Assembly: GCA_043228905.1 (NCBI GenBank)
Contig: JBHGNT010000004.1
Coordinates: 9,796,001-9,860,000 of the forward strand
DNA length: 64,000 nucleotides
Reading direction: 5' to 3'
DNA from: Azolla caroliniana
Taxonomy: Eukaryota > Plantae > Polypodiophyta
The translations under genes and the position numbers were made by a program. This document shows, one piece after another, positions 18,122 to 52,801 of this stretch. The notes beneath the pieces were generated by a model. That model was not told where the DNA came from and did not search any database. It saw nothing but the letters and a program-made list of their open reading frames with translations. Numbering within the stretch: position 1 is the stretch's first letter; the number at the start of each line of letters is the position of its first letter.

Positions 18122-18135
18122 AGGGGTGGGTCCAA

Positions 18136-18637
18136 TGTGCCATGGCACTATCCCATAGGCATGCCAGGTGTTGTCCACCGGAATAGTAACTGACAGACAG
18201 GAGTGTAGAAATATAGAATATAGAAAAAAACGTAAGTAACGCATGTAACGGTTCACGCGGGAAGCGTGAACGGTTAAAAGACCCTGTGTATATAAAGGGC
18301 AGAAATCCTCTGTAAGAGGTAGTGTGTAAATTTTGGGCATAGAGTGTTATGTTAATAGAGTACTATATTCTCTTATTATCGTGCATATCTATGCTTGATC
18401 TACTGTGTTTCTGTGATTCTCGATGGCGTATTGTAAGCGTAAGAGCATAGCCGTGAGTGCGTTTACTAGCACACTATCTAAGGAGTTCGGTTGTAGCCAT
18501 CTCCCTTATATGCTACTAGGATACAGGGAAGTATCCCATTACGTATTACGGTACGACGTTACCGTTCGTTGCAACGCAGTCACTTTGAGGTTCCTAATCG
18601 AAGGACTAACTGTAGACCGTGTTCCTAATCGGTAACA
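18136..18637 (+). repeat. 3' LTR of Gypsy-P1
   Basis: Follows the PPT; TG..CA; TATA near 18288. Gag sequence of another element starts immediately after 18637. Confidence 0.72.
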
Positions 18638-20454
18638 GTCATCGATCGGGTGCTGGAAATGGATAAACATAGCTCTCTGATGACGACGGGAGCCCTGCAT
18701 ATGGCCCTTCCAAATAAGGAGGATCTCAGGGTTCGCCAGGAGTTGCAATGCACAACGTGTTTAAACTCGGGCCATTCGACAATAGACTACACAATGAGGA
18801 CACAATGTATGATATGTCACTCACGGGCACACACAACGGACCGATGTGAGTACAACCTGCTCAACCGACAAGCGGCACCAGTGCGGAACATTAAACCACG
18901 TCGCAGTCATGAACCGGACGACGAATGGTTCCGGAGGGAGGACCGATACCGACCAGAACGTGGGAATCGATACAATGATAGAAGACACGACGACTATGAC
19001 CGCGATCGCGACAACCGCCATAGGGAAGGCTACAACCGAGATCGGTATGAATGGGACTACTCCCCTGATTACGACCGGAGAAGGGACGATAGACGCTCTC
19101 TAGAACGACAAGGAAATCGGAATTTCCGACGCAACAAAAAATGAGGGTATTTTCGTAGGGAAGAGCGCCGGGAAGCAACCAGAGAGTACAATCCAAGAAG
19201 CACAAACACTGTTGTGACACCACCGAAGCAACGATAAACGGAGGACAACCGCCGGATAACCTTCGATGCACAGAACAGAAACATGGACAAGAGGGAGTCA
19301 GGCAGCAACCGTAAGGCATATTGCTATTATTTCCGGAAGGATGGGCATTATAGCAACCAATGTCCGGTCAAGGCTAACGAAAAACAACCGGCGGTAAACA
19401 TGGTCACCGCTGAAGTTACCGACATCTAGCAAGTCGCTACCCGTTCCAAAGGAACAACGGTCGAGTGGGAAACTCAGGAGCATATCCGGAAGCAAGCCAC
19501 CGAATGGATTAAGAAATCCAATGAACTTAATGTGGCCGAGATATAGGAACAAAACTTATAGCCGGAGGAGCCCGTAAAGAGTACCGACAAGGACCCAACT
19601 TGGCAGGCATTACAAGAATGCCAGATTGTGTTACCATTGGGGCGCCTGCTACAATTACTCCCCCAGTTTACTGAAGGGCTCAAAACAACGTTCACCGCAC
19701 CAAATCAGGAGCCGTCACTAGCATTCTTCTCCAATTCGGAGGAAGGACCGGTAGTGGTGGACACAAGCAGCCTGTCCATCATAGTGATTGTTAAAGGCAA
19801 AGAGATCACCGGAACCATTATTGACGGTGGTTCAGGGGTGAACGTCATCAGCAAGGGGACATGTGACACCATGGGAATCTGAGATTGGGAACCGTGTCCA
19901 TTCCGGCTAAGAATGGCGGATACAAGTTCGGTTCGACCAACCAGACTCATCCAGGACTTGGACATCACAATCGGAGGATACGCATTCCGGATATCGGTAG
20001 TAGTATTACAACTTAATGTGCAAGGGGGCTATCCCCTATTGCTAGGATACCATGGTTGCGGATGGCACACATAAAACAAAACAAGCAAAAGAATGTAATC
20101 ACCTTTCCACGAGGAAAGACCAAAGTACGCGTACCGCCACAACCACGAGTAGGAACCAGTAAGGAAGTAACCCCCCTATATGCGGAGAGCATCAACATGT
20201 TGGACGGGTTAGATGACGAAGAAGTCGACCGTTACTTGGAAGAGCACCCGAAGATTGTGCCATTATTTGAGGTAGACATAACTGAAGCCGTCATACCATA
20301 TGTGACGAACCTGGGAAAGGAATCAGACGAACCGGATGAAGAAGAAATCCAGGAGTTATGACAAGCACAAGAATCATTGGAAAGGGAAATGACTATATCC
20401 CAAAGAGTAAAAGCATCCCAGCTGAGAGTAACGGATGCGTTCCCACTACCGTTC
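18638..20454 (+). mobile_element. Gypsy-P2 fragment: gag C-half, protease and start of RT (same lineage as P3)
   Basis: Knuckles CTTCLNSGH and CMICHSRAHTTDRC, protease IIDGGSGVNVI and PLLLG..W, then deletion to VTDAFPLPF. Colinear with 31500-32700 on the minus strand. Confidence 0.85.
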
Positions 20455-23156
20455 AACCATGGGCTCGGGAGACTATGACCGAGAAGGGAGTCGACGCAAC
20501 CACAGTGGAGCAATTGTTGAAGGAGATGGAGAATCTGAAAATCGCAATGGTGAAGAAGATAAAAGACCGTCCCACAAGTTCCAAGTACATGGACCGTCGA
20601 TGCATATGGTGCGATAGCACCGAACATGATCGAAGAGATTGCGACGAGCACAAGGAGGCGTTACAACGGGATCTTATCTACTACGAGGGAAATCGGATCC
20701 ATTCGATGGACTCTCGGAAGCCACTCCGACCGAACTTCCGAAAAGGCGGCATGAAGAAGGTCTTAGAGGAGGAGATCGCGGCGAAAAACAACTATGCGAC
20801 AACCGCGGGAATACGTGTGGGGGAGTCATCTAGAGCAAATGCGTCTTTTTGGCCGGAAGTGCTAGAAATTTCGAAGAAAGCCGACCATGATGAAATCCGA
20901 AGCACCGGGGAATGTATCCGGGAAGCTATGGGATGAGAGTGCCCCATAGATAAGAATAGCGTACATGCGCTATGTCAATTGCATGAAGTGTATGTGGATG
21001 AAAAACGAAGGCGCACGGATGATGCGGTCGGACCATCAAAGGTGTCGGAGAGCTAAAACTCTGAAGGGAAGGGGAAAGGAAAAACAATTCCGGCATTCAA
21101 ACTCACCTAGTACATCGAACAACAGACGGACCTAAAGAAGGTGTTTGAAGAGAGAATCCTTGATATCAATTTGATATCCAACGAGAAAAGAAGAAAGAAT
21201 ACCAGAAACTAGAGGATAAGTTGAGGTCGGCATTAATAATAAAAGAAGACGAAGAAATTGTGGGGGTAGTCGAAGAAGTGTTCTATGGGAGCATGCTACA
21301 ACAGCTTGAAGAGCTTGTGGAGGATAGAAGCCAAGGAGACCAGGTAGTCTCGATGGAATCAGTCGAGATGTACAAGATCATTGCGAAAATGGGGCCGGAT
21401 GCGCTCCACAAAGAAGAAGCAATGGTAAGTACGAAATACAAGACCGTGGAGAAGAAAGTGAAACCAGTCGCGGGACCGTTACCCGCTGATAGCGAGCAAA
21501 AGAGGAAAGAAGTCTCGGGAGATCCGACACTTCGGAAGTCCGTGGATATCGGACATGCCTTCATGGATGAGACCCGGAAGAAACTTCGGATCGATGGAGG
21601 TGGTTTCCTTTTACAAAATGAAGAAGAACGATTCCGTGGGATGTTGGAACAACATGGGAAAGCATTTGCATTCACATCGATGGAGACAGGGTGCGTTGAT
21701 CCGAAGATAGTGGAGCCGATGGTGATCTTAACGATTGACCATATGCTGTGGAACCTGAAGCCGATTCCGGTGCCACGGGCGCATATTCCAAAAGTCATCG
21801 ACTTGCTCAAGGAGAAGGTGGCGATGGGGATTCTAGAGCCATCAAATGCTCCGTACTCAAATCTATGGTTTACGGTTCCGAAGAAGAATGGGTCACTCCG
21901 ATTTATCCAAGACTTGCAACCCGTGAACAAAGTCACAATCCGGAACTCCGGAGTCAGTCCGATAGTGGACGAATTTGCGGAAGCATTTGCTGGTCATGGG
22001 ATATACTCCATCAGAGACCTATACTCGGGTATGACCAATTCCAACTATCCGTGGAGAGCCGAGACATCACTACCATGTGGACACCGATAGGATTAGTTTG
22101 AATGTGCACATTACCACAAGGAGCGACAAACTCGGTTGCACATATGATGAACGCAATGAACAAGGTGCTTTGAGACTGTCGTTCCTAGATGACATTCCGG
22201 TGAAAGGATGCGCGGTGGAAGAAAAAGATGAGATTATGGATGATCGGGGATGCCGACAGTTTGTAGTCGACCATATTCGCGATTGCAAGAAAGTGCTATG
22301 AAAGTTAGAAGATGTGCACCTAACACTTTCCAGTGAGAAATCGGCATTCGGACAAGAAGAAATATTGGTAGTTAGACATCTATGTGGGCCCTACGGCCGA
22401 AGACCAGCACCAACCAAGATCGATGCGATTCAAGCTATGAAAGAAGTATGTGAGTCACAATCCGAAGTTCGAAGGGTTCTTGGAGCTTGTGCATTTTATC
22501 ACATATGGATTCCACACTATGCACATATTGCGGACCCACTCTATCACTTGTTGTGGAAGGGTAAGAAGTTCAAATGGAGACCGGAACATACTAAAGCCAT
22601 GAAGAAGCTTAAGAAAATACTACGGAGGGCGGAATCACTTAAGAAGCCGAGCTATGACCGACCGATCATAGTAACGGTTGACACGAGTCAAACCGGAATC
22701 GGATGGGTCATCAATCAAGCTGACTTGGATGGTTCACGATATCCGATCCGATTCAGAGCAAAGGTTCTCAACGAAAGGCAACTTGAGTATGCACAAGTCA
22801 AAAGAGAGTTATGGGGAGTCGTGCCGGCAATCAAATTGGATCGAGATTATTTGATCGGAGCCGAAGTAGTGATCAAAACGGATTGTCTTCCGATACTTGG
22901 GATGATGTGATGTTGCACGATACCAGATGTGGCTATGCTAAGATGGATTGCATATGTTAAGTCGCTTAACCCGGACGTACGACACATCTCCGGAAAAGAT
23001 AACGTGGTAGCGGATATGCTATCAAGGGCTCAATTCTGAGACGACATATCTGAATCCGATAATGAAGAAGTTTCGGAAGACTACTTTGCTTCGAAGCACA
23101 TATGCCGATTAAACGTAATCCGAGAATTCCGAGAAGAAGAGTACAAGGGAGAAAGC

Positions 23157-24698
23157 TTGATGATCAGGAAGGTGCTACAAGAGATTGAGGAATCACCGTA
23201 TGATAAAGAGAAGAGAGCTGAGATCCGAAGGAAGAAGAGGCAAGTCCAAAAGTTCTTCTTGAAAAATGGATTAATATGGAGGGAGCCAAAAAGACCGGAT
23301 GGCATACCACTTTGGGTAGTCGGGATGAAAGAGCAACGAAACTGGATAATGTCCGAGTTTCACGAATCCGATTGGGCGGGACATCGAGGAACATGGGCAA
23401 CTTTTGTGAAAATCAAACAAAAATATTGGTGGAAGAATATGTACAAAGATATAGCGGAGTTCACGGAGAGCTGCGAGAAGTGTCAAATCTACTTCGGAGT
23501 TCGACACCGAGACGAGTTACATCCGACATTGTCACCAACAATCAACTTCAAATGGATTGTCGACATTGTAGCCATGCCAACTAGGATCGGACAAAAGAAG
23601 TACTTGGTGTTAGCTCGGGAAGATCTCATAAACCAAGTAGAAGGTCGAGCGCTATGGAGGAAAACGTGTTCTGCGGTATGCCAATTCCTTTTGGAAGAAG
23701 TGTTTTGCAAGTACGGGTGCGTAGGAAAAATGATTGCGGATCGGGGAGAACTCGACTCTGATAAAGCTAGGGAAGTCTTCACCAAACATGGAGTTCGATT
23801 AACACTAACAACGGCATACAATCTAGAGGCCAACGGAAAAATCGAACGAGGACATAGTCCAATCGTCAAAGCACTTGCCAAAGCATGCAACGGAAGGGTG
23901 AAGGATTGGCCGCAGATGCTCCCGTATGCACTATGGGCGGATCGGACAACGCATAGCTCCGTAACCGGTTATATGCCGACTGAACTTATGACTGGACAAG
24001 CACCGGTAATGCCGACGGAAACCGCGATCGCAACATGGACAATGCTACCATGGAAGGAAGAGATGAGCCGGGAAGAACTACTAGCGGTCCGGATACGACA
24101 ACTAGAGGGAAGACCGGAAGACATAGCGGAAGCAACACGCCAACAACAAGAAGCGCGATTCAGGAACAAAAGCCTATTCAACACAAAACATCGACTACGA
24201 CCGCGGAAGATTGAAGAAGGAGATTGGGTGATTGTCTATGACAGTAGTCTGGATCATCAACATACAACGATACGAAAGTTTGCGAAAAGGTGGTTCGGGC
24301 CATACGAGGTTCGAAAAGTTTTCGACAATGGAACTTACCGACTATGTGAGTTGGATGGGACGATACTACGAGTGCCTATAGCGGGGAAATGGGTAAAGAT
24401 CTTCAAGAAGCGGATTGACAACGAACCCTATGTAACCCTAGACAAGACCGACAACGAGGAGCAACCAGACAAAGATCGTGGTGATGCGGAAAGCGAAGAA
24501 AGTGGTCTACAATTGATGGTTGATATAAGGGAGGAATTGGGTAGTGCTATGGATGAAGACGAACAACAGGCATCGGGAACTTCGGCACCCGGGTTTGGAG
24601 GGGGCGAGTGTCGTAGTGTCATTCGCACACTACGTGAAAATTGCATTTTTGTCCCTCTGGATGGAATCGGTAAGGAGGAACCGGTGAGAACCGGATGA
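23157..24698 (+). pseudogene. Gypsy integrase ORF remnant (513 aa, open)
   Basis: H-H-C-C zinc domain (HESDWAGHRG..CEKCQ), DDE core and GPY module. Confidence 0.88.
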
Positions 24699-25370
24699 AG
24701 GATGGAATCGGTAAGGAGGAACCGGTGAGAACCGGATGAAGGATGGAATCGGCAAGGAGGAACCGGTAAGGAGACCCGGTAAGAACGAGATCAAGCAGAA
24801 CTGGCAAGAGCCAGATAAAGAAGGCCGGTGAGAGTTTCTCACCAGATGAAGACACAAATTTGTAAATAAAAGAAAAGATTGTTACATGCATAGGGCAAGA
24901 TTCGAACCCTATACCTCCTTGTTAACGATTTTTAAGCCTTACCACTATACTAGCATATTATGAATTGTAAAGTTATACTAAACTTTATCTCATGTAAATA
25001 TTCTAGATATGCATGGTACAAAAAGTTATTCATGCATACATACTCGAGTTAAAAGAAAAGATGGGATAGAAAGCTAATCATGCACATGCAGTGTGCATGA
25101 AAACTAAAGTTAGGAAAAGCATGATGTTTGCATGTGATAAACTTAGACTCTTCGAACACTATATAAGGAAGAGAGATAGATGTATAGGGGTTGTTGATTT
25201 TTATAAGGTTTGAATAATATAAAATAATCGTGGGATTCACGATTTTACCATCTATTTCTCTCTTACAATCTAAGTATCAATTAATACACTATACTCGTGG
25301 GATTCACGAGTTTCATATCTTCTTCTTGCAATCTCTTCCTAACTAACATTATCTCATATTCTTCTTTCTC
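24609..25370 (+). repeat. 3' LTR of Gypsy-G1b (right end lost or approximate)
   Basis: Starts TG after the PPT. Contains a 41-bp tandem repeat (~2.7 copies, 24660-24770), a tRNA-like module, and TATATAAGG near 25160. Confidence 0.75.
24888..24954 (-). other. tRNA-like A-box/B-box module inside an LTR (second copy)
   Basis: Minus strand reads TAGTATAGTGGTAAGGC...CGTTAACAAGGAGGTATAGGGTTCGAATC, followed about 12 nt later by TTTTCTTTT. Confidence 0.7.
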
Positions 25371-26915: not shown

Positions 26916-28049
26916 TCCGTGTGGATCTTCGTCAACACGAACTGTTGATCTTCTACTCTCTCTCGGATCTAGTGATACCTCCACTGGATATGTTTCGTCC
27001 AGGAATGGTAGGCCGCTTTCTTTGAAAGGTGGATGACACTTTGATTGTCGTAGTAGAGCCGGTATTCCTCCTGTTGGATCCCTAACTCTTCGATGAACTC
27101 CTTCATCCAAATTATTTCCTTGCCAGCTTCGACAGCTACCATGTACTCCGCCCGCTTCCGTGGTTGTCAACGCAACCATCTTTTGCAGCCTCGACTACCA
27201 TGAAACAGCTCCCCCTACATAAGTCATGACATATCCGAATGTAGACCGGCTGGTATCTACATCAGCGGACATATCCGAATCCGTGAATCTGTCAAGTTGG
27301 GGATTACTGAAGCTGAACCGGAGGCACATACTCAAGGTGCCTTTCAGATACCGGGGTATCCACTTGACCGCGTTCCAGTGCTCTTTTTCGAGATTTCTCA
27401 TGAATCGGCTCACCAGTCCGATTGCATATTTGATATCCGGTCGGGTACATACCATTGTGTACATCAAGCTCCTGACGGCAGAGGCATATGGTATCTTCAT
27501 CATATCTGTCTTCTCTGTCTTTGTTTTCCAGATAGCTTGTAGTTTGCCGGAAGTGTCGATCTGATCGGTTTTGCCTCCGACATGTTGAACCGTTGAAGTA
27601 CTTTTGTCACGTACTTCTCCTATGACAACCACAACAACTTTTTCGACCGGTCCCGGATGATGTGCATTCCCAATATTTGTCTTGCCGGATCCAAGTCTTT
27701 CATTGAGAAGGTCCGGTTCAAAGCCTTCTTCAGCATCCAAATCTTGCCTTGGTCTCATCCGACGATCAACATATCATCCACATATAGGAGTATCAGCAAA
27801 TCTCCTCCATCAAAATTCTTGACAAACACGCAGTGATCAGCCTACGTCTTGTGGTACGCTTGGTCAGTCATGAAGGAGTCGAACTTCTGGTACGATTGTT
27901 GGGGGGCTTGCTTTAATCCGTATAAGCTCTTCTTCAGCCGGCACACTAGGTGCTCCTTCCCTTTCTTTTGAAATCCTTATGGTTGATGCATGTAGATCTC
28001 TTTTTGAGGTTGCCATGTAGGAACGCTATCTTGATGTCCAGTTGCTCTA

Positions 28050-28428
28050 CGTTGAGATACAAGCTCAACATTGGCTAGGTCGGTTGTGCAAGCCGAGAAC
28101 CGGATCGGTGCGTAAACTGGTGCGCAAACCAGGAGGCTGTTGAATAGATATTCCGCAAGGGAATATATTTGGGAGTTAGTGAAGCCGCTCAGTTATGAGC
28201 ATTGAAGTATGTGTCAGTACTTTTGTCAATCTATATGGATTTGTATAAAAGTGCTCTCTAAGCACATCCTATGTACAAAGTTTACACATTATTCCAATTC
28301 AGTTTTTCTGTGTGTTTTTCCCTCTCTGTCTCTCCCGCGTACATTGTGTCTTAAGCTATCCATTAAACTTGTTTTTTTCTCTATCGGTATTCTATGTTTC
28401 GTATAGCTTCCGCACGTAACATTTCAAA
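28050..28428 (+). repeat. 5' LTR of Copia-E
   Basis: Diverged direct repeat of 47540-47993, shorter in the U3 repeat tract. Confidence 0.9.
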
Positions 28429-28547
28429 TAGTATCAGAGCGCGAGGGTTGAGAACCTCTACAGTCAACTTCAGCCCGAAACAAAAAAAAACCTAATCTTG
28501 GTGAAGAACAGAAAGGAAAAAAATTGGATCGAGAAATGGCTAGTTCG

Positions 28548-28659
28548 TGTTACAGGCTGGCAAGAAGGCTTAAGGAGGTCCAAATCAGAGTGTGAAAAGG
28601 AATAGTTATTCGGGAACTATTGTAATTAGTAATCTTATTAATATATGAGAAGATGTGGA
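28548..28659 (+). repeat. Left terminal inverted repeat (inverted copy of the LTR U3 start) of Gypsy-P3
   Basis: 108/112 identity to the reverse complement of 34112-34223. Confidence 0.95.
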
Positions 28660-30230
28660 CGCCGTCTCCGCCATCCATCGCAGCTTGTCTTTTTCCTGCA
28701 ACACTTTCTCTTTTTCCTCCTTCAGCCGGTCGTAAGCATGATGTCCTTTACGCAGGTTTTCCTCTGCCCGGCGAAGGTTCTGAACAATCTTTTTTAATTC
28801 TTCTTCGGCCGCCTTCTTCAAGTCGCGTTCGCAGCTCCGTAATGCTTCTTGTGCGGCGAGCTCATCTCGTAATTCCGCAAGCTCGTGGGCTTGCGCCGCA
28901 TCTTTCTCCGGGACAGTTTGTGTCTCTGGGGTCTTATTCCTCTGTACATCAACCGAAGTCACCGGTGCTTGGATTTGCATTGTGGTTAAGGCCATTTTGG
29001 CCATATCTCCTGTGATCCGATCCAAGTCTTGTTTGAGGCACCGGATCCTTGACCGGGCCTCCTCTAGCTCATCGGTTGTGACGAGCAACCGTTCCGTTTG
29101 TGCTCTTTCCTCTGCCTCTATGCATCCGACTACTCCGACAATTTGTTCTCCTACCCACCGGAGCCATTGGCTGCCGGTGCACTGTTGTTGCGCTTGCACA
29201 GAGAGTTGGCTGATGGGTTCACTCACCGGTGGCTGGTCCCGCCTTACTACGTCGAGCTACGCTTCTGGTTCTGCCAGCTGACCACTTTGTCGTTCCAGCT
29301 CTGAGTGTGTTTCGGTTCGCCGCCCCTTGTCTGCTTGTTCTTAGCCGGCTGGGGCGGTTGGCCTTTGTATATCCGGCTCTTGAGTGACAGGGCTTGCCGG
29401 CGCTGCCTGTTGTGCTGGGACTTCTGTGACCAGTTCCATCCGAACTAGTTCCGATGCCTCCCTTGGCGTGGGTTGCGTAGCGTGAGTTGCGGGCGTTCCA
29501 TCCTTCTGTGGGTCCGAACGCTTCCCGGCTGATTCAGCGGTGCTCTTCACCGGCCGCCGCTGAAGGTGCTCCATGGGTTCTTCCTCCATTTCTTCCGCCT
29601 GAGTCCCGTCATTCATTCTTGCCGCCAAGGTGTCTGTTTCCTGTTGCACCGGCCGGTGGAGTGGGCTCTTCAGGGGCCGTGCCAGTGTCTCCTCACTTGC
29701 ATCCGTCGGCCACTTCCGCCTGGCGCATTCCTTTGTCGCCTTCTCTGCGTCGGCCGTCTTCCCCTTAGTGGCCTTGGAGGCCCACAGTTGTTGCCGTTTC
29801 GAAGCAGGTTTCGGGGTGTCGTCCGTTGCTCTTCCCCCTTCTTGGTTTGGACGGGCTCAACCGGTGGCGCCAGCAGGGTGAGCCATTGTGCCACCGCATG
29901 CCATATTTTCTGGCCTTCCTTGCCGTCCTTTCCTCTTACTATATCAATGGTCGTACACAACCCATCGGCGATCAGCACCGGCCAATCTACCTTGACCCCT
30001 TCGTACGTTGCGATGATCAAGCTTGCTCGGTTCTGAGGCATGACGGGGGGTCGAGGGTACACGTCGCCGAACTCATGGAGCACACGGGCAATTTCGCGGA
30101 ATAGCATATCTTCGCCACCCTGTGTCCTGTAGCCCTTGCTGGCTAGAGAGTACTCACCGAAATATTTGATGAGTTGCTCGGAGGTAGGATTGTCGATCGT
30201 GTAGATGCCTCCCTCCGGAAGGCCTATTAA
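28660..30230 (-). pseudogene. Additional 3' ORF of Gypsy-P3 (disrupted)
   Basis: LIKYFGEY..KGYRT..DMLFREIARVLHEFG..MPQNRASLIIATYEGVKVDW, followed by a coiled-coil region. Homologous to the P1 extra ORF. Confidence 0.8.
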
Positions 30231-30608
30231 CGATGTTCGATAAGCCCAGAGCGCACTGTGCAGCTTCGTATCCCAATCCGTCCGGTTTTCGTTGAGGATT
30301 TTCCGGAGGATATTCTGGAGCGTTTTGTTCGTTGACTCAGCTAACCCGTTTTCTTGCGGATAGTACGGTGTGCTTCGTTTATGTACTCCGTAAGCTGCAT
30401 GAACGCGCTGCCGATTGCGATGTCAGAGGCGTCCATGAACACATGAAACTCTTTACTCCAATCCAAAGGCTGCACTACTGATGCTTGTGACAATAACACC
30501 TTTAGTGCCTTGTATGCCTTGTCTTCGATGTCGGTCCATTGGAACGGTGTTCGATGTACTGCCGTATGCAGAGGTGTAGCCAGGTCTGCCAAATATCGGA
30601 GCATACGG

Positions 30609-31754
30609 CTATGCCAGCAGATTTGTCCTAGGAAACGGCTCAATGCCTTTTGCCGTTGCCGGTGCCGGTGCTTCCCAGATTGCTTTCACTTTGTCCGGAT
30701 CTACGACAATGCCTTCCTTGCTTACTATATGCCCTAGTAGCGTTCCGCTGGACACTCCAAATACACTCTTCGTCGGATTCAGGTTTAGCCGGTACGCCCT
30801 ACGCTTCTCCAGACATAGTCTGAGGTGCTGCAAATGGTCTTCTTCTCGGCTATAGACGGCGAAGTCGTCAAGGAATACCTGCATAAAAGATGGTATGTAT
30901 TCGCCAAAGATCTCCATGATGATCCCTTGGAATGTTGTTGGTGCCGTTTTCAGACCGAACATCATCACCACGGCAACAAACACTCCCCATTCGGTGACGA
31001 AAGTCGTTTTCTCTTGATGATCAGGATGCATCCGGATCTGATTATACCTGCTGAATCCGTCTAAGAAACTGTAGACTTCATGGCCAGCGACGACATCCAA
31101 AACCCCATCCGTAAACGGAAGTGGAAATGCATCCGTTACCGTTGCCGCATTGAGCTTCCGGTAGTCGACACAAACTCTAATTTTGTCGTTCTTCTTTGGT
31201 ACGACTACGATCGGGCTCAACCATGTAGATTTCTTTACGGAACGGATGAAGCCAACCCTCAACAATTTGTCGATTTCCTCCTTGGCTTTGGTGGCGTAGT
31301 TTGGGTTCATCCGGTATCGACGTTGTGCTACCGGCTTAGCGTCTTTGCTCAGGTGTATCTGGTGTTGATACAACTGAGGATCCAGCCCTCTCATATCCTC
31401 GTAAGACCAGGCAAATACATCGCGAAACTCGTTGAGTGTAATTATCGCCATTTTGTTCTTTGCATTCATTTCTTTGGCGACGTGCACTAGTTTTGCCTCC
31501 TCCACCGTACCTAGATTTACCTCTTCCAATTGAGACGCTTTTACACGTTGTGATACGGCCATTTCTCTTTCCAATGCCTCCTGCGCTTGCCGTAACTCCC
31601 GGATTGCTTCTTTATCCGGTTCCGCTTCGATTCCGTCCGGTTGCAGTAAGTAAGGTGATACCGCTTCGGCAACGTCAATTTCGAATAGGGGTACAATCTC
31701 CGGGTTCTCCTTCAAGTATTGATCTTCTTCTTCATCTGCGAATCCTTCCAGCAT
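30609..31754 (-). pseudogene. Gypsy-P3 reverse transcriptase (381-aa open fragment)
   Basis: WLSPIVVVPKK..RVCVDYRKLN..DAFPLP..SFLDGFS.YNQI..MFGLK..VFLDDF..LGHIVS. Confidence 0.92.
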
Positions 31755-33763
31755 ATTGATGCACTCCGCATATAACAGTGTCAGATCCTTGCCAGTGTCC
31801 TTCCTTGGTTGTGTTGGTGATCATATTCCTCCTCCAATTCTGCTTGATGTGTGTCGTCTTTAACCAAGGGCGTCCCAACAATAATGGGTACGCTCCTTGA
31901 GCCTGCAACTGGAGAACTACGGCTGAGATTCGGAATGTGTGGCCCCCGATGGTTACTTCTAAGTCCCGTATTAATCCTGTCAGTCGCACCGAGCTTGTGT
32001 CCGCCATTCGGAGCCAAAACGGACATGGCTCCCACTCTTGGATTCCAAGAGCATCGCACGTCCGGAGGCTTATTACATTAACGTCGGAGCCTCCGTCTAT
32101 TATCATGCTGGGGAGTTCTTTCCCTTTCACAATGGCAGTAATTGCTAGACTGTTGGTGTCCACCACCGTCGGTCCCTCCTCCGGATTTGAGAAGAATGCC
32201 GAAGCCGGTGGTGTTCCGCTTGTCGCCGTGTCGGACTTGAGTCCTTCTGTGCATCTTGGTACCGTCCATTGTAATCTCGGTACTTGTCATATCTCTTGTA
32301 CCGATCATAGTTGTCTCGCCGATTGTCATACCGGACATCCTGTGCCGGTCGATACCGCTCCTCTCGTCGCCAGCGTTCGTCTTCCTCATCTTGGTTGCTG
32401 CATGGCTCGATTTGCCGGACTAGTGGAGCTTGCCGATTCAATAAGTTATATTCGCACCGATCCATCGTGTGGCTCATGGAGTGGCAGAGTAAGCAGTGCG
32501 TCCGCATGGTGCACTCCAGTGATGAGTGTCCGGAATTCAAGCAGGTCGTGCATTGGATTGCTTGCCGGAAGCCGAGATCCTCATCGGTTGGTAACGCTTG
32601 TTGGAGAGCTCCCATTGTTAGCCAAGAGCTCGTTTTTTCCATTTCTCTAACCCGGCCGATGACCTGGCCGACGGTGCTTGTGCGAAAGTCGATGACCGTG
32701 CATACTATTCGGAGAGGTTCCCAGAGGGAGGCTAAAAATATAGCCCGCGTTTCTTCCTCCGGAGGTGCGTGGGTAAGCTGACTGTGCATCCGTTGAAACC
32801 GGATGACAAACTGCGGGATGCTCTCCCAGGGTCCTACCGGATGGTATAAAATAAGCCCACCATTTCTCGTTGGTCCACCTCCTCCTGGAAGAAGTGCAAG
32901 AATTTGTCTTTCAGGTCTGCAAAGGTGGTGATGGTGCTGCGATCCTGCGTCCGGTGCCATCTGGCGGCCGATCCTTCCAATGTCACACCGAATTCGGCTA
33001 TCTTAGATCGTTCCTCTTCTACCGCAATTAACCGTTGTGACACATGGTTAACCTCCCATGTTTGTTGGAATGCGTGAACATGAGCCTCCGCGTCTGGATC
33101 ATCCCTATACTTGGAGTACTGGAACGACATGTTGTTGTCCGGTGTCGGTACGCGGGCTGGCGGTGTTGGTGGTCTTTCCTGCTGTTCCGTCAGTGTGGGA
33201 GGTCTTTGCCGATCTTCCTTTGGTGTTGCCGGCTCGACTTCCGGTGTTGGAGGTTTTTGCCGGTCTTCCTCCGTCTCCGGAGGTTGCTCCACGTGTAGTG
33301 TCGGAGGTTCCTGATCTGCCAACTCTGGTTCCGGTGTCGGTACTGTATCCAAATCCGGTGTCGTCTGGTCCTCCCAGGGTGTTGTTACTGCTGCGATAGT
33401 TCGTGTGCGTGTTGTAACCCCCTTCCGAATCTGATTCCAGTGCTGAAAACGCTTCGGATTCGCCGTCTCTTCCGGCCAAGGCCTGCAGAAGGGATTCCGC
33501 TTCCCGGAGGCTGCTTAAGCTGCTTCCTTCGTCCGGGTAGGCGTTTTGTTGTAGACGGAGCGACTCCTCTGCCACTTTCCGGATCACTTTGGAAAATGAT
33601 CGATCCATTCGGATTTCTTCCTCTGCTTGTTGGAAAGCCTCTCGCCACCTTCTCCGTTCAGCAAGTCTTCGTGCTCTCTCCGTAACCGGGTCGTCTGTTG
33701 GCCTCGTCATCCATTCCCGTCATTGTTCATTGCAATTGTGCAGGAATCGTGCTTGCCAAAAAC

Positions 33764-34223
33764 TGTGTTAATCCGAGGGCAGGACAACAGCCTAACACAG
33801 GGTGTCCACTTAAGACACTTCACCAAAGGGTGGTACGGCAGAATGACTTACGGCACAACGTTTAATTAGACCTTAATTGGCTACTTAGCAATCCGTAAAT
33901 AACACGCGTAAGATATAACAATGAATACAAAACAATAATCAACACTGGAAGATTAAGACAAAAAGCTCTATTAATTATCCGCTTCTGATTACATTATAAC
34001 CGGGCCTTTATATAGGTCTCCGGTGCAAAATACAAAACGGTGCCAATCGGCACCTTTACGGGATCGGTCCGGATCCGGATCCGGATCGGCATACCGATTC
34101 CGGTCCGTCCATCCACATCTTCTCATGTATTAATAAGATTACTAATTACAACAGTTCCCGAATAACTATTCCTTTTCACACTCTGATTTGGACCTCCTGA
34201 AGCCTTCTTGCCAGCCGGTAACA
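33764..34223 (-). repeat. 5' LTR of Gypsy-P3 (its first 112 bp form the right inverted repeat)
   Basis: Minus strand runs TGTTA..TAACACA, then gtttt and TGGC (PBS-like). TATA at ~34005-34014. Confidence 0.8.
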
Positions 34224-35996
34224 GTTCGCTTCCAACTGACAAACTGGACAGAAGTAACTATGCATCTTGGTCGTACAAGATGCACCAGTACCTGCTCGGA
34301 CATGGATACTGGAGCTATGTCGATGGAGCGAATGATGCAGCACCCGAATCAACATAGAGAGACTTCCCAGCCTGGGAACAGTTGACGAGCGGAGCTCTCT
34401 ACTGTTTCGCATCCTATGTGAGCGAACAACTCTTGAGCTACATTCAGGATGCAAGAATGCCGAAGGATGCTTGGGGAAATCTGAAAAAGATTTTCGTCGC
34501 AAGCACCACAGCAAGGAAACTCTAATTCCGATAGGAGTTGAGCAATGTGCGTCAACGTGACATGACGGTGGCTGACTACACCTCCAAGATAAAGGATATC
34601 TGTGACTCCCTTGCCTCCATCAATGTGAACGTTGAGGGCGAAATGGTGCAGATCTGCCTCCGAGGATTGGTGTCGATGTTCGGAGCATTCCGAACTGCTG
34701 TTTGTACAAGGGAGAATACGCCGTTGTTTTTCGACTTGTAGTCGATGCTTCTTGTAGAGGAGAATCACACGGGTGCGTCGACAAGTGTGCACGCCGATAG
34801 CAAGATGTTGTACACGGAGGGAGATAGGCCCCATGGTCATGATGGACAAAGCAAATCAGCGTGCAATGGAGGCGGTCGATGGGTGCAAGGAAGAAGGCAT
34901 CGTGGTGATGCCGACAGCAATTCCAGACCCTCCAAAAGCAGGGGGAGTCGAGGAGGCGACGAGAACCGACAAGGGAAACACGTCGCGGAATTTTGGTATT
35001 GTGGCAAGAAAGGCCACAAGGAGAGTGAGTGTTGGAAGAAGCGAGCCGATTCAGAGAAAATTGGATCCGAATCCGGACGGACCGAACAAGGAAATCGGCA
35101 GCGGACGCACTACGCTGAAGGATCCGAAGAAGTCAGAAAGGGGGCAGCCTTCGTGACAAGACATGAAGCGAACTCGATGAAGAAGACCACCCCGGAATCA
35201 GACGAAGTGTGGTACGTTGACTCTGGAGTGTCAAACCGGAACAACCGGGAGTAGTCGCAATAGGACACGACAATCCGCATCCGATTGTACATGTCAGTGA
35301 AGTTCCCCTCAGCCACGTCAATCAAAAAGGGATGCTAATGAATGTGTTATACGTCCCGACAATTACCTAGAATCTGGTGTCGGTCGAACAGATCGTCGAC
35401 CAGGGGATGGAAGTCTGGTTCACGCATCTCAGGTGCTTCATCAAGGAAGAAGGCCAAGTTATTGCACAAGGGTGTAGAGATGGGAAGATGTTCATCCTCG
35501 ACACCAATGACGTAGGCACCGCCATGTTCGCAAAAGGGTGAAAAGTCGAGTTGGATATCGACTTGTGGCATAAACGGATAGGCCACGTCAACTATCAAAG
35601 GCTTCAGGACCTACAATCAAAACAAGTTCTGTTCGGATTGCCGAAATTTAGTGGTCGAAAGGCCCAAATTTTGAGAAGCCTGCCAGTTAGGGAAGAACCA
35701 CCGAATTCCTTTCCCCAACGAGCGTAATCGGAGCCGAAATAAGCTCGACTTGATACACTCAGATGTATGGGGACCCGCACAGAACGTGAGTCTTGGCAAG
35801 AGGCGATATTTCGTCTCCTTCATCGACGACTACACCCGGCACACATGGATCTACCTCATCAAAAAGAAGAGTGAAGTCTTCTACTGTTTCCGGAACCTCA
35901 AAAATCTTGTCGAAAAGGAAATAGGGAGGAAGATCAAGTGCCTGCGGTGTGATGGAGGAAAAGAGTATTTTTTTGGCCAATTCAACAGTTATCTAC

Positions 35997-36694
35997 TGTT
36001 GGTAGACAGGTCCCTCCGGATGGGAAGGGAGAAGAACAGTGCCAACGGTATGAACCGGATGGGGAGAACCCGACTTCGGAGAGTCGGATGGTGTAGGCCC
36101 GATATGAACCGGATGAGGAGTGCCCGACTGCGGAGAGTCGGATGGTGTAGGCCCGATATGAACCGGATGAGGAGTACCCGACTGCGGAGAGTCGGATGGT
36201 GTAGGCCCGGTATGAACCGGATGAGGAGTACCCGACTGCAGAGAGCCGGATGGAGCCCATCGAGGCTACATTTGTAAATAGCCAAAAAGTCATATTAGTA
36301 TAAATATGACTTAGGGCAAACTTTTTTTTGGGGTAGTTGTTGTTGTTTTTTTTTGTTGTTGGTGCAAGAAGAAATCAGTGTGTGTAACTGTACAGAGTAA
36401 GAGAGAGAGAGAGAGACGAGGTCGTTGCCTCTGTTGTAACCGCCGCCTGTGGCGAAGATCTGAGAGCACGAGGTCGTTGCCTCAGTGATCTCACTGTTGT
36501 ATATTTCTGCATAGTGACAGTTTGCAGCTTGTGGGCTGTCGTGGTTTTTCCCCCTATTTTGGGGTTTTCCACGTATACCTCCTGTGCACCATTTCTCCTC
36601 TTTTGTGTAGCGTTTCATTACCTGTTTTTCTGTGTATGTAAAGAATCTCGGTTGTGGCCGAGCGTCGGACATAAGGAACGTCGAGTTCTCAACA
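35997..36694 (+). repeat. 5' LTR of Copia-F with a 54-bp U3 tandem repeat (~3.7 copies)
   Basis: Repeat unit tatgaaccggatgaggagtacccgactgcggagagtcggatggtgtaggcccga. Confidence 0.95.
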
Positions 36695-36725
36695 AGTGGT
36701 ATCAGAGCAAAATCGACACAGAAAA

Positions 36726-39700
36726 TGGACGAATCGTTTGGCGGCATGTTCAAGCTCACCGGCTCCAACTATTCAGTGTGGAAGTCGAAGATGAGGGACA
36801 TGCTCGTGGTTAAAGACCTCTGGCTGCCGGTTCAGTTCGGGGACAAGAGACCGGACAAAATCGACGCCGCGATATGGGAGGTGATGCACATGAAGACAAC
36901 GGCGTACATACGGTGCTTCATCGACATGAGCCTGTACAACAACTTCAATGAAGAGAGCAAGGCTCATGAGCTCTGGGAGAAGATCGGCATGATGTTCCAG
37001 AACAAAAATGCTGTCAATCAGGCGTCGGTATTCCGGAAGCTTGTAAGACTCCGGTACCAAGATGGCTCCAGCATGGCGGAGCATATGAATGCCTTCCAGG
37101 GGCTGATTCACCAGGCAACGTCATTGGAAGTACCTCTTGCCGATGAGGTCCTAGCGCTACTCCTGCTCGGTTCCCTCCCGAATAGCTGGGAGACGTTAGT
37201 TGTTACTTTGGGCAACGCCGGCCCGGAAGGAAAACGGCTATCCCTAGCAAGATGAGGAGGCTCGTCGGAAAGACAAAGATACGAGCTCCGACTCCAAAGC
37301 GCTCCTTACCGAATCGGAACGCGGAAGACATAGAAACCGTAGTCCCCTGAACCGGGAGAAGTCGGGGACACGATCAAAGTCAAGGGGGGGGCCGACTTGC
37401 TTCTATTGCGGCAAGCCGGGACACTTCCAAAAGAACTGTCGGCATTTCCGTAAAGACAAGGAAACCGACGGTACCGATTCGAAGCAAACCCCGAACCAGA
37501 ACGGTAAAGACCGGAGGGGTCCGGACCGGAAGGGAACGACGGCAATTGCGGCAAGTGAAGAGGAGTTGATGCTCATCACCGAGGAGAGTGAGATAAACCA
37601 TGTCGGCGATGAGATGACCTGGGTGGTAGACTCCGGAGCGTCGTTCCACCTTACCCCGGACCGGAAATGCTTCTCATCCTACTCAGCCGGTGATCACGGC
37701 TGTGTCCGGATGGGGAATGAAGGAACATGCCGAATTGTCGGCATAGGAGACGTGTGGCTGACAACACCAACCGGATGCAAGTTGCTGTTGAAAGATGTCC
37801 GACACGTTCCGGAAGTACGTCTGAACCTGATATCAGCCGGTCAGCTAGATGATGAAGGCTACACGGGTAGCATCCGGAACGGTGTCATGAAGTTCAGCAA
37901 AGGGAGCCTGATTGTGGCTCGGGCCCGGAAGGTAAACACACTGTACCTGATGAATGCCCGGTTATGTCCGGAAGAAGTGAACGTGGCTTCCGACACTACC
38001 GGTGAGCTGTGGCACAAGAGGCTATGTCACATGAGTGAGAAGGGGATGAAGAGGCTTGGAGACGACAACCTCATTCCAGTGAAGAACGTGCACTTAGAGA
38101 AGTGCACTGATTGTCTGGCCGGTAAGCAAAACCGGACCTCCTTCCGACCAAGGCCACCGATGAGACGTAATGCACCACTGGAGTTGGTGCATACGGATGT
38201 TTGTCAAGTAGACACGAAGTCACATGCCGGAGCGCAGTACTTCGTGACGTTCATAGATGACCACAGCCGGAAGCTGTGGGCCACACCACTGAAGACGAAG
38301 GATCAAGTGTTATCCGTCTTCAAAGAGCTCCACGCGAGAGTGGAAAGAGAAACCGGCAGGAAGCTGAAGGCGGTTCGAGCAGATAACGGAGGTGAGTACC
38401 GGGGGCAGTTCGAGGAGTACTGCCGCTCGAAGGGAATCCGGCTCGAATTTACCGTGCCGAAGACGCCGGAGCTAAACGGACTAGCCGAGAGGATGAACCG
38501 GACCATAATGGAGAGGGTCCGGAGTATGCTAGCGCATGCAAAACTACCCAAGAAGTTTTGGGCTGAGGCACTGTCGACGGCGACATATGTGATAAACAGA
38601 TCACCCTCAGTGCCCCTGGACGGAGACACGCCACAGAGAGTATGGACCAGTAAGGAAGTGTCCTACCAGCATCTAAGGGTGTTCGGGTGTCTCGTGTACG
38701 TGCATGTAGCAAAGGACCGAAGAGGAAAGCTAGATCCAAAGACCCGGCCATGCATATTCCTCGGTTACGGTGACGACGAGTTCGGCTACCGAGTGTGGGA
38801 CCCGGTCGACAAGAAGGTATTCCGGAGTCGAGATATTATCTTCATGGAGGACAAGACGCTCGCCGACTGGGAGTTGGAGAAGAAGATAGTGAACTCCGAG
38901 TCGACCGGTAAGGATAGACTCTACAATGAGCAGACCCAACCGGCAAGAGACCGGTTAGCACTCGAGGAACCAGCCGGTTACGGTGAGGATACCGAACCGG
39001 CAGAAGGAGAAGTAGAGGAAGTTGAGACCGGAACCGGTCAAGATCCCGAATCGGATTCGGATGAAGAGCAAATGGAGGAACCGATTACCGAAGCCCGAAG
39101 ACGTAGATATCCTCTCAGAGAGAGAAGGGCGCCCCGGAGATTTCCGGATGCAGAGCATGTCCTGCTAACCGATGAGGGGGAGCCGGAAAGCTTCGAAGAA
39201 GCGAAGGAAGACACCCACAGCCGAAAATGGTTAAGTGCCATGCAGGATGAGATGGATTCCCTGCATGAGAACCATACGTACGAATTGGTGGAGCTGCCGA
39301 AAGAAAAGCGGGCACTCTGAAACAAGTGGGTGTTCAAGTTGAAACCGGGAGATGCCGGCAACCCCCTGAGATACAAAGCCAGGATCGTGGTGAAGGGGTT
39401 CCAACAGAAGAAGGGCGTGGACTTCGACGAAATATTCGCCCCGGTAGTAAAGATGACCTCCATCCGGATGGTGCTGAGTATAGCAGCAAGCATGGATCTC
39501 GAGGTAGAGCAGCTGGATGTGAAGACGACATTCCTCCACGGCGACCTCGAAGAGGAAATCTACATGCAGCAACCGGAAGGATTTGTGGAGAAAGGGAAGG
39601 AGCACCTGGTATGCCGGTTGAAGAAGAGCCTGTACGGACTGAAGCTGGCTCCCCAGCAATGGTATCGGAAGTTCGACTCCTTCATGACCAATCAAGGGTA

Positions 39701-40751
39701 CCATAAGACGCAGGCCGATCACTGCGTGTTTGTGAAGAAGTTCGAAGGAGGGGACTTCCTGATACTCCTCCTGTACGTGGATGACATGTTGATCGTCGGA
39801 CGAGACAAAGGCAAAATACGGATGCTGAAGAAGGCTCTCAATCGGACCTTCTCAGTGAAAGACCTGGGTCCGACAATACAGATGTTGGGGATGCACATCA
39901 TTCGGGACCGGTCAGTGAAGCAACTATGGCTGTCACAGGAGAAGTATGTGACAAAGGTGCTTCACCGGTTCAACATGTCAGATGCAAAACCGGTCGGATC
40001 GACACTTCCGGCAAACTGCAAGTTGTCCGGCAAGCAAAGCCCGAAGACAAAGGGAGAGAAGGAAGATATGATGAAGATTCCATATGCCTCTACCATCGGG
40101 AGCTTGATGTACGCCATGGTTTGTACCCGACCGGACATTGGATACGCAGTCGGAGTGGTGAGCCGGTTCATGAGCAATCCCGGCAAGCAGCATTGGAATG
40201 CGGTCAAATGGATACTCCGGTATTTGAAGGGCACTTCAAATATGTGTCTCCAATTCGGCTCCGGAAAACCTCAACTGGACGGTTTCACCGATTCGGACAT
40301 GTCGGCTGATGTGGATACCAGCCGGTCTACATCCGGGTATGTGATGACATATGCAGGGGGAGCTGTTTCGTGGCAGTCGAGGCTGCAGAAGACGGTTGCA
40401 TTGTCAACCACAGAGGCGGAGTACATGGCGGCTGTAGAAGCCGGCAAGGAAATATTATGGATGAAGGACTTCATCGGAGAGCTCGGTATCCGGCAAAAGG
40501 AATACCGACTCTACTGCGACAGTCAAAGTGCCATCCACCTTGCTAAGAATGCGGCCTACCATTCCCGGACGAAGCATATCCAGCGGAGGTATCACTGGAT
40601 CCGGGAAAGGGTAGATGACCAGGAGTTCGCATTGGCGAAGATCCACACGGCCGAGCACGGGTCAGATATGCTGACCAAAGTGCTGACACCCGACAAGCTG
40701 GACGCATGCCGGAAGAGGATCGAGCTGGAAAGACACCCCATGCCGGAGTGA
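36726..40751 (+). pseudogene. Copia-F gag-pol, broken by a small deletion/frameshift (~37255) and a premature TGA (39318-39320)
   Basis: ORF pieces 36632-37255, 37566-39320 and 39330-40751 are colinear with the intact 48715-52791 polyprotein. Motifs: DSGAS, DNGGEY, LYVDDML, DSDMS..AEY. Confidence 0.93.
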
Positions 40752-40761
40752 AGGGGGAGTT

Positions 40762-41460
40762 TGTTGGTAGACAGGTCCCTCCGGATGGGAAGGGAGAAGA
40801 ACAGTGCCAACGGTATGAACCGGATGGGGAGAACCTGACTTCGGAGAGTCGGATGGTGTAGGCCCGATATGAACCGGATGAGGAGTGCCCGACTGCGGAG
40901 AGTCGGATGGTGTAGGCCCGATATGAACCGGATGAGGAGTACCCGACTGCGGAGAGTCGGATGGTGTAGGCCCGGTATGAACCGGATGAGGAGTACCCGA
41001 CTGCGGAGAGCCGGATGGAGCCCATCGAGGCTACATTTGTAAATAGCCGAAAAGTCATATTAGTATAAATATGACTTAGGGCAAACTTTTTTTTGGGGTA
41101 GTTGTTGTTGTTGTTTCTTTTTGTTGTTGGTGCAAGAAGAAATCAGTGTGTGTAACTGTACAGAGTAAGAGAGAGAGAGAGACGAGGTCGTTGCCTCTGT
41201 TGTAACCGCCGCTTGTGGCGAATATCTGAGAGCACGAGGTCGTTGCCTCAGTGATCTCACTGTTGTATATTTCTGCATAGTGACAGTTTGCAGCTTGTGG
41301 GCTGCCGTGGTTTTTCCCCCTATTTTGGGGTTTTCCACGTATACCTCCTGTGCACCATTTCTCCTCTTTTGTGTAGCGTTTCATTACCTGTTTTTCTGTG
41401 TATGTAAAGAATCTCGGTTGTGGCCGAGCGTCGGACATAAGGAACGTCGAGTTCTCAACA
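40762..41460 (+). repeat. 3' LTR of Copia-F
   Basis: Direct repeat of 35997-36694. Confidence 0.95.
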
Positions 41461-47539: not shown

Positions 47540-47993
47540 TGTTGAAATACAAGCTCAACATTGACCGGATCGGTTGTGCAAGTGGAGAACTGGATCAGTT
47601 TGGACCGATCGGTTAGGCCGGATCGGTGTGTAAACCCGTTCGTAAATTGGTGCGCAAACCGGTGTGCAACAAGAAGCCGGATCGGTGCGGAAATCGGGAG
47701 GCTGTTGAATAGATATTCTACGACGGAATATATTTGGGAGTTAGTGTAGGAGCTCAGTTATGAGCATTGAAGTACGTGTCAATACTTCTGCCAGTCCGTA
47801 TGGACTTGTATAAAAGTGTTCTTTGAGCACATCCTATGTACAGAGTTTACACATTATTCGAATTCAGTTTTTCTGTGTGTGTTTTCCTCTCACTCTCTCC
47901 CGTGTACATTGTGTCTTAAGCTCTCCATTAAACCTATTTTTTTCTCTGTGGGTATTATGTGTTTCGTATAGCTTCCGCACGTAACATTTCACA
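47540..47993 (+). repeat. 3' LTR of Copia-E
   Basis: TG..CA after the PPT; followed by the TSD CTCTA. Confidence 0.92.
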
Positions 47994-48096
47994 CTCTACC
48001 TCGAGGTCCATGCTTGCCGCTATGCCCAAAACCGTCCGTATGGATGTCATCTTTACTACGAGGGCAAAGATCTCATCGAAGTCTACTCCTTTCTTT

Positions 48097-48683: not shown

Positions 48684-48714
48684 AAGTGGTATCAGAGCGA
48701 CGATAACACAGAAG

Positions 48715-52791: not shown

Positions 52792-52801
52792 AGGGGGAGT
52801 T

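What the first reader, a model, noticed from the sequence alone, without database searches (positions are those of the whole stretch)
28543..34228. Gypsy retroelement with terminal INVERTED repeats (two U3 ends) and a perfect 5-bp TSD
Seen: 28548-28659 is the reverse complement of 34112-34223 (112 bp, 4 mismatches), with both ends reading TGTTAC.GGCTGGCAAG inward. The unit is flanked by GTTCG/GTTCG, and removing it restores the host Copia gag start ATG GCT AGT TCG CTT CCA (MASSLP). Inside are gag, protease, RT, an integrase remnant and an extra ORF; there is no direct 3' LTR or PPT. Established: LTR elements integrate via one U3 and one U5 end with direct repeats; DIRS elements have inverted repeats but use a tyrosine recombinase and typically make no TSD; Ginger transposons have TIRs and a Gypsy-like integrase but no RT. 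Inference: post-insertion recombination between LTRs would leave a U5 end next to the TSD, so two U3 ends were probably joined in one integration event. Possible causes are two-donor concerted integration followed by repair, a fold-back cDNA, or a real TIR-bounded Gypsy subfamily (a possible LTR-to-TIR intermediate). The relative Gypsy-P1 appears to have a normal PPT plus sense LTR, so a one-off event is plausible.
Basis: partly seen in the sequence, partly recalled or inferred. Interest (0 to 1): 0.85.

Follow-up and report, generated by a model that had tools for sequence, protein, structure and literature searches.

The report
Gypsy copy with two left ends
This dead plant jumping gene carries its start end at both termini under one clean insertion scar, likely because the copying enzyme stalled and jumped templates and the insertion enzyme accepted the result; sequencing depth hints at about three copies in one sample, but nothing yet shows that it moves as a unit.

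Summary
Observation confirmed. 28548-28659 is the reverse complement of 34112-34223 (112 nt, 4 mismatches), both ends are the start (U3) of one LTR, and the same five bases flank both, collinear with an uninterrupted Copia paralogue. Contigs of sample S1 hold the arm/ORF joint, so misassembly is unlikely. The element is a defective Ty3/Gypsy: three internal deletions, about 50 aa of integrase, and an extra ORF cut 350 aa short. Ordinary relatives run on past the joint (10 of 14 homologous proteins; none has the chimeric end). Best reading: one integrase-made insertion of a cDNA with two U3 ends, from a reverse-transcriptase jump (0.55). A mobile TIR subfamily is not excluded (0.08). The scan noted such two-U3 insertions before, in several other genomes and once for a Copia in this one.

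The parts
28138..28426 (+). 5' LTR of the host Copia (also the 3' LTR of an element upstream); partner at 47703-47991, 88.9% identical
28536..28547 (+). first four codons of the host Copia gag, interrupted by the insertion
   Evidence: paralogue at 1888-1401
28543..28547 (.). left target-site duplication GTTCG
28548..28661 (+). inverted copy of LTR nt 1-114 (U3 start); 112 nt at 4 mismatches, 114 nt at 5
28662..30233 (-). extra ORF remnant (aa 153-621 of the 972-aa relative P0004), one frameshift near 29835; cut bluntly by the inverted arm
30234..30385 (-). integrase core fragment, about 50 aa, between two deletions
   Evidence: (rve_3, E 0.003, below cut-off)
30386..31816 (-). reverse transcriptase, connection and first residues of RNase H; frameshift near 30648; RNase H deleted beyond 30386
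31817..32264 (-). protease region
32265..33514 (-). gag remnant with frameshifts; zinc-knuckle part (about 0.6 kb) deleted near 32265
33742..33758 (-). PBS-like site starting TGGCA, 7 nt behind the LTR; primer tRNA not identified
33766..34223 (-). complete 5' LTR, 458 nt, TGTTA...TAACA, TATA box at 34014
34064..34109 (.). strongest predicted local DNA hairpin of the element, directly behind LTR nt 114
34224..34228 (.). right target-site duplication GTTCG; host Copia gag continues

Best explanation
This is one dead Ty3/Gypsy insertion with the LTR start (U3) at both termini and a 5-base target duplication, likely inserted by the family's integrase from a miscopied cDNA that likely arose when reverse transcriptase jumped templates. 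Shown: two U3 termini, TSD, blunt joint between LTR nt 114 and the extra ORF, loss of about 1.4 kb or more of the normal 3' end, three further internal deletions. Inferred chain: (1) a plus strand starts at the U3 boundary and stalls at about nt 114, in front of the predicted hairpin; (2) it jumps without homology onto element RNA or plus-strand DNA inside the extra ORF and goes on as a minus strand (equivalently, a nearly complete plus strand jumps onto a second strong-stop DNA and copies back to its start); (3) a normal second strand transfer completes the 5' LTR, giving a linear DNA with two U3 ends; (4) integrase joins both ends to one staggered site. The product has no 3' R and no plus-strand priming site, so it is predicted not to retrotranspose as such, and its integrase is a 50-aa scrap. 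The roughly three copies in S1 are likely alleles or DNA-level duplicates of one locus (untested).
For: Both termini are exact LTR starts next to a perfect TSD; integrase is the known source of a 5-base TSD in plant LTR elements (93.4% in PMC6317226, passages). Retroviral integrase inserts two copies of one end type together in vitro (PMC6705210, passages). Joint present in contigs of S1: X5 record 25 covers 28614-28691 (46 and 32 letters either side of 28659/28660), X1 records 3 and 4 cover 28634-28691. Ordinary members continue the ORF past 28662 in all 4 runs (loose ends) and in 10 of 14 homologous proteins; 0 of 14 carry the chimeric end, so the shape is not the family norm. The five most stable 40-nt windows of the whole element start at nt 109-117; the 111-nt stretch folds at z -3.4 and -3.1, 1 of 200 shuffles each. 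Aberrant template switches that still integrate with a TSD are known in plants (PMC1950507, part 1 of 2 read).
Against: No microhomology at the joint, so the jump would be non-homologous. The element has three other deletions, so a longer inverted arm may have been trimmed later and today's joint may not be the original; a hairpin can also mark a genomic break point. The hairpin was noticed after the fact and is a prediction. HTLV-1, HIV-1 and SIV integrases disfavour U3 ends in vitro; this family's preference is unknown. S1 depth suggests more than one copy (44.3 + 73.4 against a median of 37.6 for 15 hand-picked single-contig rows), and one contig that enters the joint has depth 230, twice the sum of its two listed branches, which I cannot explain. 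In HIV and RSV, one-ended aberrant integrations usually lose the normal TSD (PMC5041404, passages), which says nothing for my specific route.
Confidence: 0.55

Rival explanations
1. Two-donor concerted integration: one integrase complex inserted the U3 ends of two cDNAs at one site; the two free inner ends were joined head to head, and the large palindrome was trimmed to a long and a 114-nt arm.
For: Explains TSD, two U3 ends and a blunt, homology-free joint. The arms differ at 5 of 114 positions, and L001 sides with the left arm at 3 of them, as two templates could. Two separate donors are the standard in vitro reaction.
Against: Needs two cDNAs in one complex plus a repair step. The arm difference (K2P 0.045) fits decay alone: L001 sides with the right arm at the other 2 positions. 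No in vivo case found in my searches.
Confidence: 0.15
2. Repair after a normal insertion: a break removed the 3' LTR and part of the extra ORF, and repair synthesis from the flank, anchored on the five bases shared by both LTR termini, copied 114 nt of an LTR start in inverted orientation before rejoining.
For: The U5 end seen from the flank and the U3 start share TGTTA. The element has three other deletions. The family is very abundant, so templates are plentiful.
Against: Needs two jumps, one landing exactly at LTR nt 1 on a 5-base anchor with the TSD untouched. Earlier notes report many such two-U3 insertions in other genomes (unchecked), which a rare repair path explains less well.
Confidence: 0.13
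3. A mobile TIR-bounded subfamily: the unit has been copied or cut and pasted by integrase supplied in trans and lies at several sites.
For: In run X1 the joint has two variants at depths 44.3 and 73.4 and the matching 5' LTR haplotype has 110, about three single-locus equivalents each; the contig entering the joint has 230. Ends fit the TGTNR pattern and length of Ginger TIRs (PMC2836005).
Against: Flanks of the S1 copies were not seen; alleles, a pooled or polyploid sample, segmental duplication or carriage inside the host Copia give the same depths. No 3' R or priming site; integrase is a scrap. 0 of 14 homologous proteins have the chimeric end. Excision by integrase is described as unknown and theoretical (PMC2836005 section 9).
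Confidence: 0.08
4. Assembly artefact (fold-back read or repeat mis-join).
For: The window is repeat-dense; S1 may be the sample behind the assembly, and its library type is not on record.
Against: Joint contigs at depth 44-230 in two runs; arms differ at 4-5 positions; perfect TSD collinear with a paralogue.
Confidence: 0.02

Closest known systems
Plant non-chromovirus Ty3/Gypsy elements, OTA side (Neumann et al. 2019, PMC6317226; passages read)
   Same: Order gag-PR-RT-RH-INT, 3' forward extra ORF, 5-base TSD, TG...CA LTR; RT closest to named proteins of Adiantum nelumboides and Riccia (about 50-60% identity).
   Different: 3' LTR replaced by an inverted 114-nt U3 piece; no PPT; three internal deletions. 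Lineage not placed on a tree here.
Template-switch complex LTR insertions (Sabot and Schulman 2007, PMC1950507; part 1 of 2 read)
   Same: Abnormal reverse-transcription product inserted as one unit with a true TSD.
   Different: Those keep direct LTRs (three of them) and a U3 and a U5 end; this has inverted ends.
Aberrant HIV-1/RSV proviruses (PMC5041404; passages read)
   Same: Rearranged, truncated viral end.
   Different: There one end is joined by host enzymes and the short TSD is usually lost; here both ends are exact and the TSD is perfect.
Guppy PrERV-1 with an inverted 5' LTR (PMC5210030; two passages read)
   Same: An endogenous retroelement with inverted LTRs.
   Different: Origin left open there (recombination suggested); the two passages I read give no TSD.
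Ginger1, Ginger2/Tdd and GingerRoot DNA transposons (PMC2836005 passages and section 9; PMC6839031 abstract)
   Same: TGTNR termini, inverted repeats of 40-270 bp, Gypsy-type integrase ancestry; Bao et al. proposed TIRs from two opposed LTRs.
   Different: Gingers encode an intact DDE transposase, no RT, and make 4-bp (TDD-4/5: 5-bp; GingerRoot: 6-bp) TSDs at many sites; this copy keeps RT, lacks a working integrase and is seen at one site.
DIRS tyrosine-recombinase retroelements (features recalled)
   Same: RT plus inverted terminal repeats.
   Different: No tyrosine recombinase or internal complementary region found; has a TSD and a DDE integrase fragment.

Membership tests
Ty3/Gypsy LTR retrotransposon | domain order gag-PR-RT-RH-INT | tested here: met
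   fragments lie in this order; gag, PR and INT hits are below Pfam cut-offs but backed by 74-89% identity to close relatives for PR, RT and RH
Ty3/Gypsy LTR retrotransposon | two direct LTRs | tested here: not met
   one complete LTR plus an inverted 114-nt piece; a derived copy, not a canonical member
Ty3/Gypsy LTR retrotransposon | PBS behind the 5' LTR | tested here: inconclusive
   TGGCA-starting site at 33758; tRNA not identified; no match in the 5 text supplements of PMC6317226 that are held
Ty3/Gypsy LTR retrotransposon | PPT before the 3' LTR | tested here: not met
   none at the left arm; L001 and the window relative have a tRNA-end copy in that place
Ty3/Gypsy LTR retrotransposon | 4-6 bp TSD | tested here: met
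   5 bp, collinear with paralogue
OTA superclade (Athila/Tat) | 3' forward extra ORF | tested here: met
   aa 153-621 of P0004; no Pfam family above cut-off
OTA superclade (Athila/Tat) | placement by RT-RH-INT phylogeny; aRH present or absent | not tested
   no labelled reference set held; the RH-INT stretch is deleted in this copy
Ginger1 / Ginger2 / GingerRoot | TIRs of 40-270 bp starting TGTNR | tested here: met
   112-114 nt, TGTTA (definition)
Ginger1 / Ginger2 / GingerRoot | intact DDE transposase and no RT | tested here: not met
   50-aa integrase scrap; RT present
Ginger1 / Ginger2 / GingerRoot | TSD of 4 bp (Ginger1, most Ginger2) or 6 bp (GingerRoot) | tested here: not met
   5 bp here; only TDD-4/5 have 5 bp
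Ginger1 / Ginger2 / GingerRoot | dispersed copies with the same ends and different TSDs | tested here: inconclusive
   about three depth equivalents in S1, flanks unseen; no genome held
DIRS | tyrosine recombinase, no TSD (recalled) | tested here: not met
   no such Pfam hit in the 9 element ORFs scanned; TSD present

The most novel reading that the evidence does not exclude
A Gypsy derivative with U3 terminal inverted repeats has multiplied as a unit to three or more sites with different target duplications, moved by integrase in trans: a living step from LTR retrotransposon to Ginger-like DNA transposon, born in a lineage whose plus strand starts at a tRNA-end site and stalls at a U3 hairpin.
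Probability: 0.08. Interest if true: 0.85.

Novelty: new variant of a known kind. Interest (0 to 1): 0.47.

Why it matters
It is a clean natural case of a Gypsy integrase joining two identical U3 ends at one site, which LTR finders that need direct repeats miss. It gives a one-step route to inverted ends around pol sequence, simpler than the two-insertion route proposed for Ginger (PMC2836005, section 9). If arms of such copies end at the same U3 hairpin across the genome, they would map a reverse-transcriptase pause and the plus-strand start in a lineage that seems to lack a PPT. As it stands it is one dead copy, and the scan has noted the class before, so the surprise is moderate.

Tried and rejected
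No genome is held for this window, so copies and flanks could not be counted. Runs X2 and X3 had no contig on the arm side of the joint at 90% likeness; a hole in contigs proves nothing and I do not use it. The wide lay listed 15 of 74 joints, none at the element's ends. Viral contigs: no relative of the extra ORF or RT and no joint pattern. Prokaryote genomes: 120 hits to a 16-mer, none aligning beyond 38 columns, taken as chance. Metagenome contigs gave one locus, L001. Look-ups of earlier findings by sequence and 'near' were empty. The RSV paper PMC1317513 is not held; an id recalled for a Ty1 review was an unrelated paper, so Ty1 end preference is not cited. Rejected: the arms as TIRs of a separate DNA transposon (the right arm runs on into a full LTR with TATA box and PBS-like site); simple inversion or LTR-LTR recombination (would leave U5 or internal sequence at the TSD); annealing of the strong-stop PBS copy to the 3' tRNA-end site (the two sites agree at only 9 of the first 11 bases and differ beyond). 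Self-priming is unresolved (see noticed). A sub-cut-off Pfam hit of the relative's extra ORF to PF03497 (17.7 bits, cut-off 25) was taken as chance.
Full report
1. Observation. GTTCG lies directly outside both arms (chance 0.001). I compared each flank on its own with the window: the left flank ends and the right flank begins on the same five positions of an uninterrupted Copia paralogue at 1888-1401, minus strand. So exactly five host bases are duplicated, in codons 3-4 of a Copia gag.

2. Anatomy, read on the minus strand. A complete 458-nt LTR (34223-33766, TGTTA...TAACA, TATA box at LTR nt 210) is followed after 7 nt by a PBS-like site. Then come gag, protease, RT and the start of RNase H. 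Relatives show three deletions: the zinc-knuckle part of gag near 32265, most of RNase H to the integrase core at 30386 (loose ends at 30386), and the integrase C-terminus to aa 153 of the extra ORF at about 30234. The extra ORF matches a 972-aa relative (P0004) up to aa 621 and stops at 28662; 1053 nt of ORF, the 3' untranslated part and 344 nt of LTR are missing. In their place stands the inverted LTR start. Named RT relatives are from Adiantum nelumboides and Riccia at about 50-60% identity, which points to a seed-free land plant.

3. The joint. Contigs of ordinary family members leave the window sequence before 28662 in all four runs. The related LTR start in L001 has the left arm's base at position 113, so the arm can be read to nt 114 (28661). 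The joint is therefore blunt: no shared and no added bases. Of 14 homologous proteins, 10 continue the ORF normally, 4 end earlier or differently, and none has the read-through end of this copy. The inverted shape is not the family norm.

4. Is it real, and how many? Sample S1 holds the joint: X5 record 25 covers 28614-28691 at depth 47, and X1 records 3 and 4 cover 28634-28691 at 44.3 and 73.4, differing by one letter. Only the X5 record meets the tool's 31-letter rule, and only with the joint at 28659/28660. S1 may be the source of the assembly and its library is not on record, but depth, arm differences and TSD make a mis-join unlikely. Against a median of 37.6 for 15 single-contig X1 rows that I picked from those shown, the two variants sum to 3.1 equivalents and the contig matching the element's own 5' LTR (110) to 2.9. 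The contig entering the joint has 230 (6.1 equivalents), which I cannot account for. The baseline is rough, ploidy is unknown and the flanks were not shown. Alleles, a mixed sample, segmental duplication, carriage inside the host Copia and true mobility all remain open. The host Copia LTRs are 88.9% identical, so this locus is not a fresh Copia copy.

5. The family's plus-strand start. L001, the single metagenome hit, has a 16-nt copy of a tRNA-like 3' end 2 nt before an LTR start 89% identical to ours. The relative at 15.3-18.6 kb has a decayed version (3 mismatches) with a small hairpin 2 nt before its direct LTR; its purine run lies about 40 nt upstream, at the ORF stop. Earlier notes on this genome describe such PPT-less families and name tRNA-Arg; I first read the L001 site as another element's PBS and changed my reading after seeing them. 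My own support is one contig and one decayed relative; the tRNA name is theirs.

6. A hairpin at the arm end. The five most stable 40-nt windows of the whole element, template strand, start at nt 109-117; the first 85 nt of the LTR are nearly unstructured. The stretch 34020-34130 folds at z -3.4 and -3.1 (1 of 200 shuffles each). The arm ends at nt 114, at the foot of this structure, and L001 departs from our LTR at nt 126. This fits a polymerase pause but was noticed after the fact and would also fit a genomic break.

7. Mechanism. Most likely a nascent strand jumped between the U3 plus strand at about nt 114 and the extra ORF, giving a linear cDNA with two U3 ends that integrase inserted normally (0.55). 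Shown: ends, TSD, joint, losses. Inferred: the jump, the pause, the order of deletions. Rivals: two-donor integration with trimming (0.15), repair after a normal insertion anchored on the five bases shared by both LTR termini (0.13), a mobile TIR subfamily (0.08), misassembly (0.02). The first two readings share the core claim of one integrase event with two U3 ends (about 0.7 together). The arms differ by K2P 0.045; L001 sides with the left arm at three positions and the right at two, which fits decay and does not require two donors.

8. Comparison. It derives from a non-chromovirus Gypsy with a 3' extra ORF (PMC6317226, passages) but fails the direct-LTR and PPT tests. It resembles Ginger elements in its ends only (PMC2836005, passages and section 9; PMC6839031, abstract). 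Template-switch products with a TSD are known in grasses but keep direct LTRs (PMC1950507, part 1 of 2). Aberrant HIV and RSV proviruses usually lose the short TSD (PMC5041404, passages). Integrases join two like ends in vitro, with a bias against U3 in HTLV-1, HIV-1 and SIV (PMC6705210, passages). One fish endogenous retrovirus with an inverted LTR is mentioned in print (PMC5210030, two passages). Ten searches found no account of two-U3 insertions in plants; the library lacks most subscription papers, and the large supplement tables of PMC6317226 were not among the text searched. Earlier unreviewed notes of this scan report the same shape in several other genomes (9 findings in at least 7 genomes hold the search words, 8 shown) and for a Copia in this genome; I did not check them.

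9. Verdict. Real, well-formed, dead, and probably a member of a recurring class of reverse-transcription accidents. New variant of a known kind; interest 0.47. The copy number and flanks in S1 are the one open point that could raise it.

Noticed in passing
window 18125-18169 (+): The Gypsy relative at 15.3-18.6 kb has a decayed tRNA-end copy with a 12-nt hairpin 2 nt before its direct 3' LTR (18169-18637), in place of an abutting PPT; the LTR is followed directly by a gag piece with no PBS.
   Followed up: partly
window 33742-33758 and 34086-34102: The PBS-like site pairs with LTR nt 122-138, inside the U3 hairpin (-20.4 kcal/mol; 1 of 300 dinucleotide shuffles, window chosen after seeing the match; 12 of 200 with a wider window). 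Could allow fold-back of strong-stop DNA or self-priming.
   Followed up: partly
L001 1-1318: Two tRNA-end sites in one 1.3-kb contig: one before an LTR start of this family that departs at nt 126, and one with a hairpin before an unrelated LTR start.
   Followed up: partly
window 48095-53388: Copia with 589-nt LTRs that are 100% identical and a 1368-aa open frame: a very recent insertion.
   Followed up: no
window 35997-41460: Copia nested in the host Copia's integrase, LTRs about 99% identical, apparent TSD TCTAC.
   Followed up: no
window 28006-28426: The host Copia's 5' LTR is preceded by the 3' end of another Copia, so the LTR is shared in a tandem arrangement and no TSD could be read for the host.
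   Followed up: partly
window 20420-24700 (+): The relative's pol breaks at 20420 and is joined to a different Gypsy lineage (RT, RNase H, H2C2 integrase) without an LTR in between.
   Followed up: no
window 33105-33719 (-): A 204-aa open frame between PBS and gag, overlapping gag in another frame; no Pfam hit.
   Followed up: no
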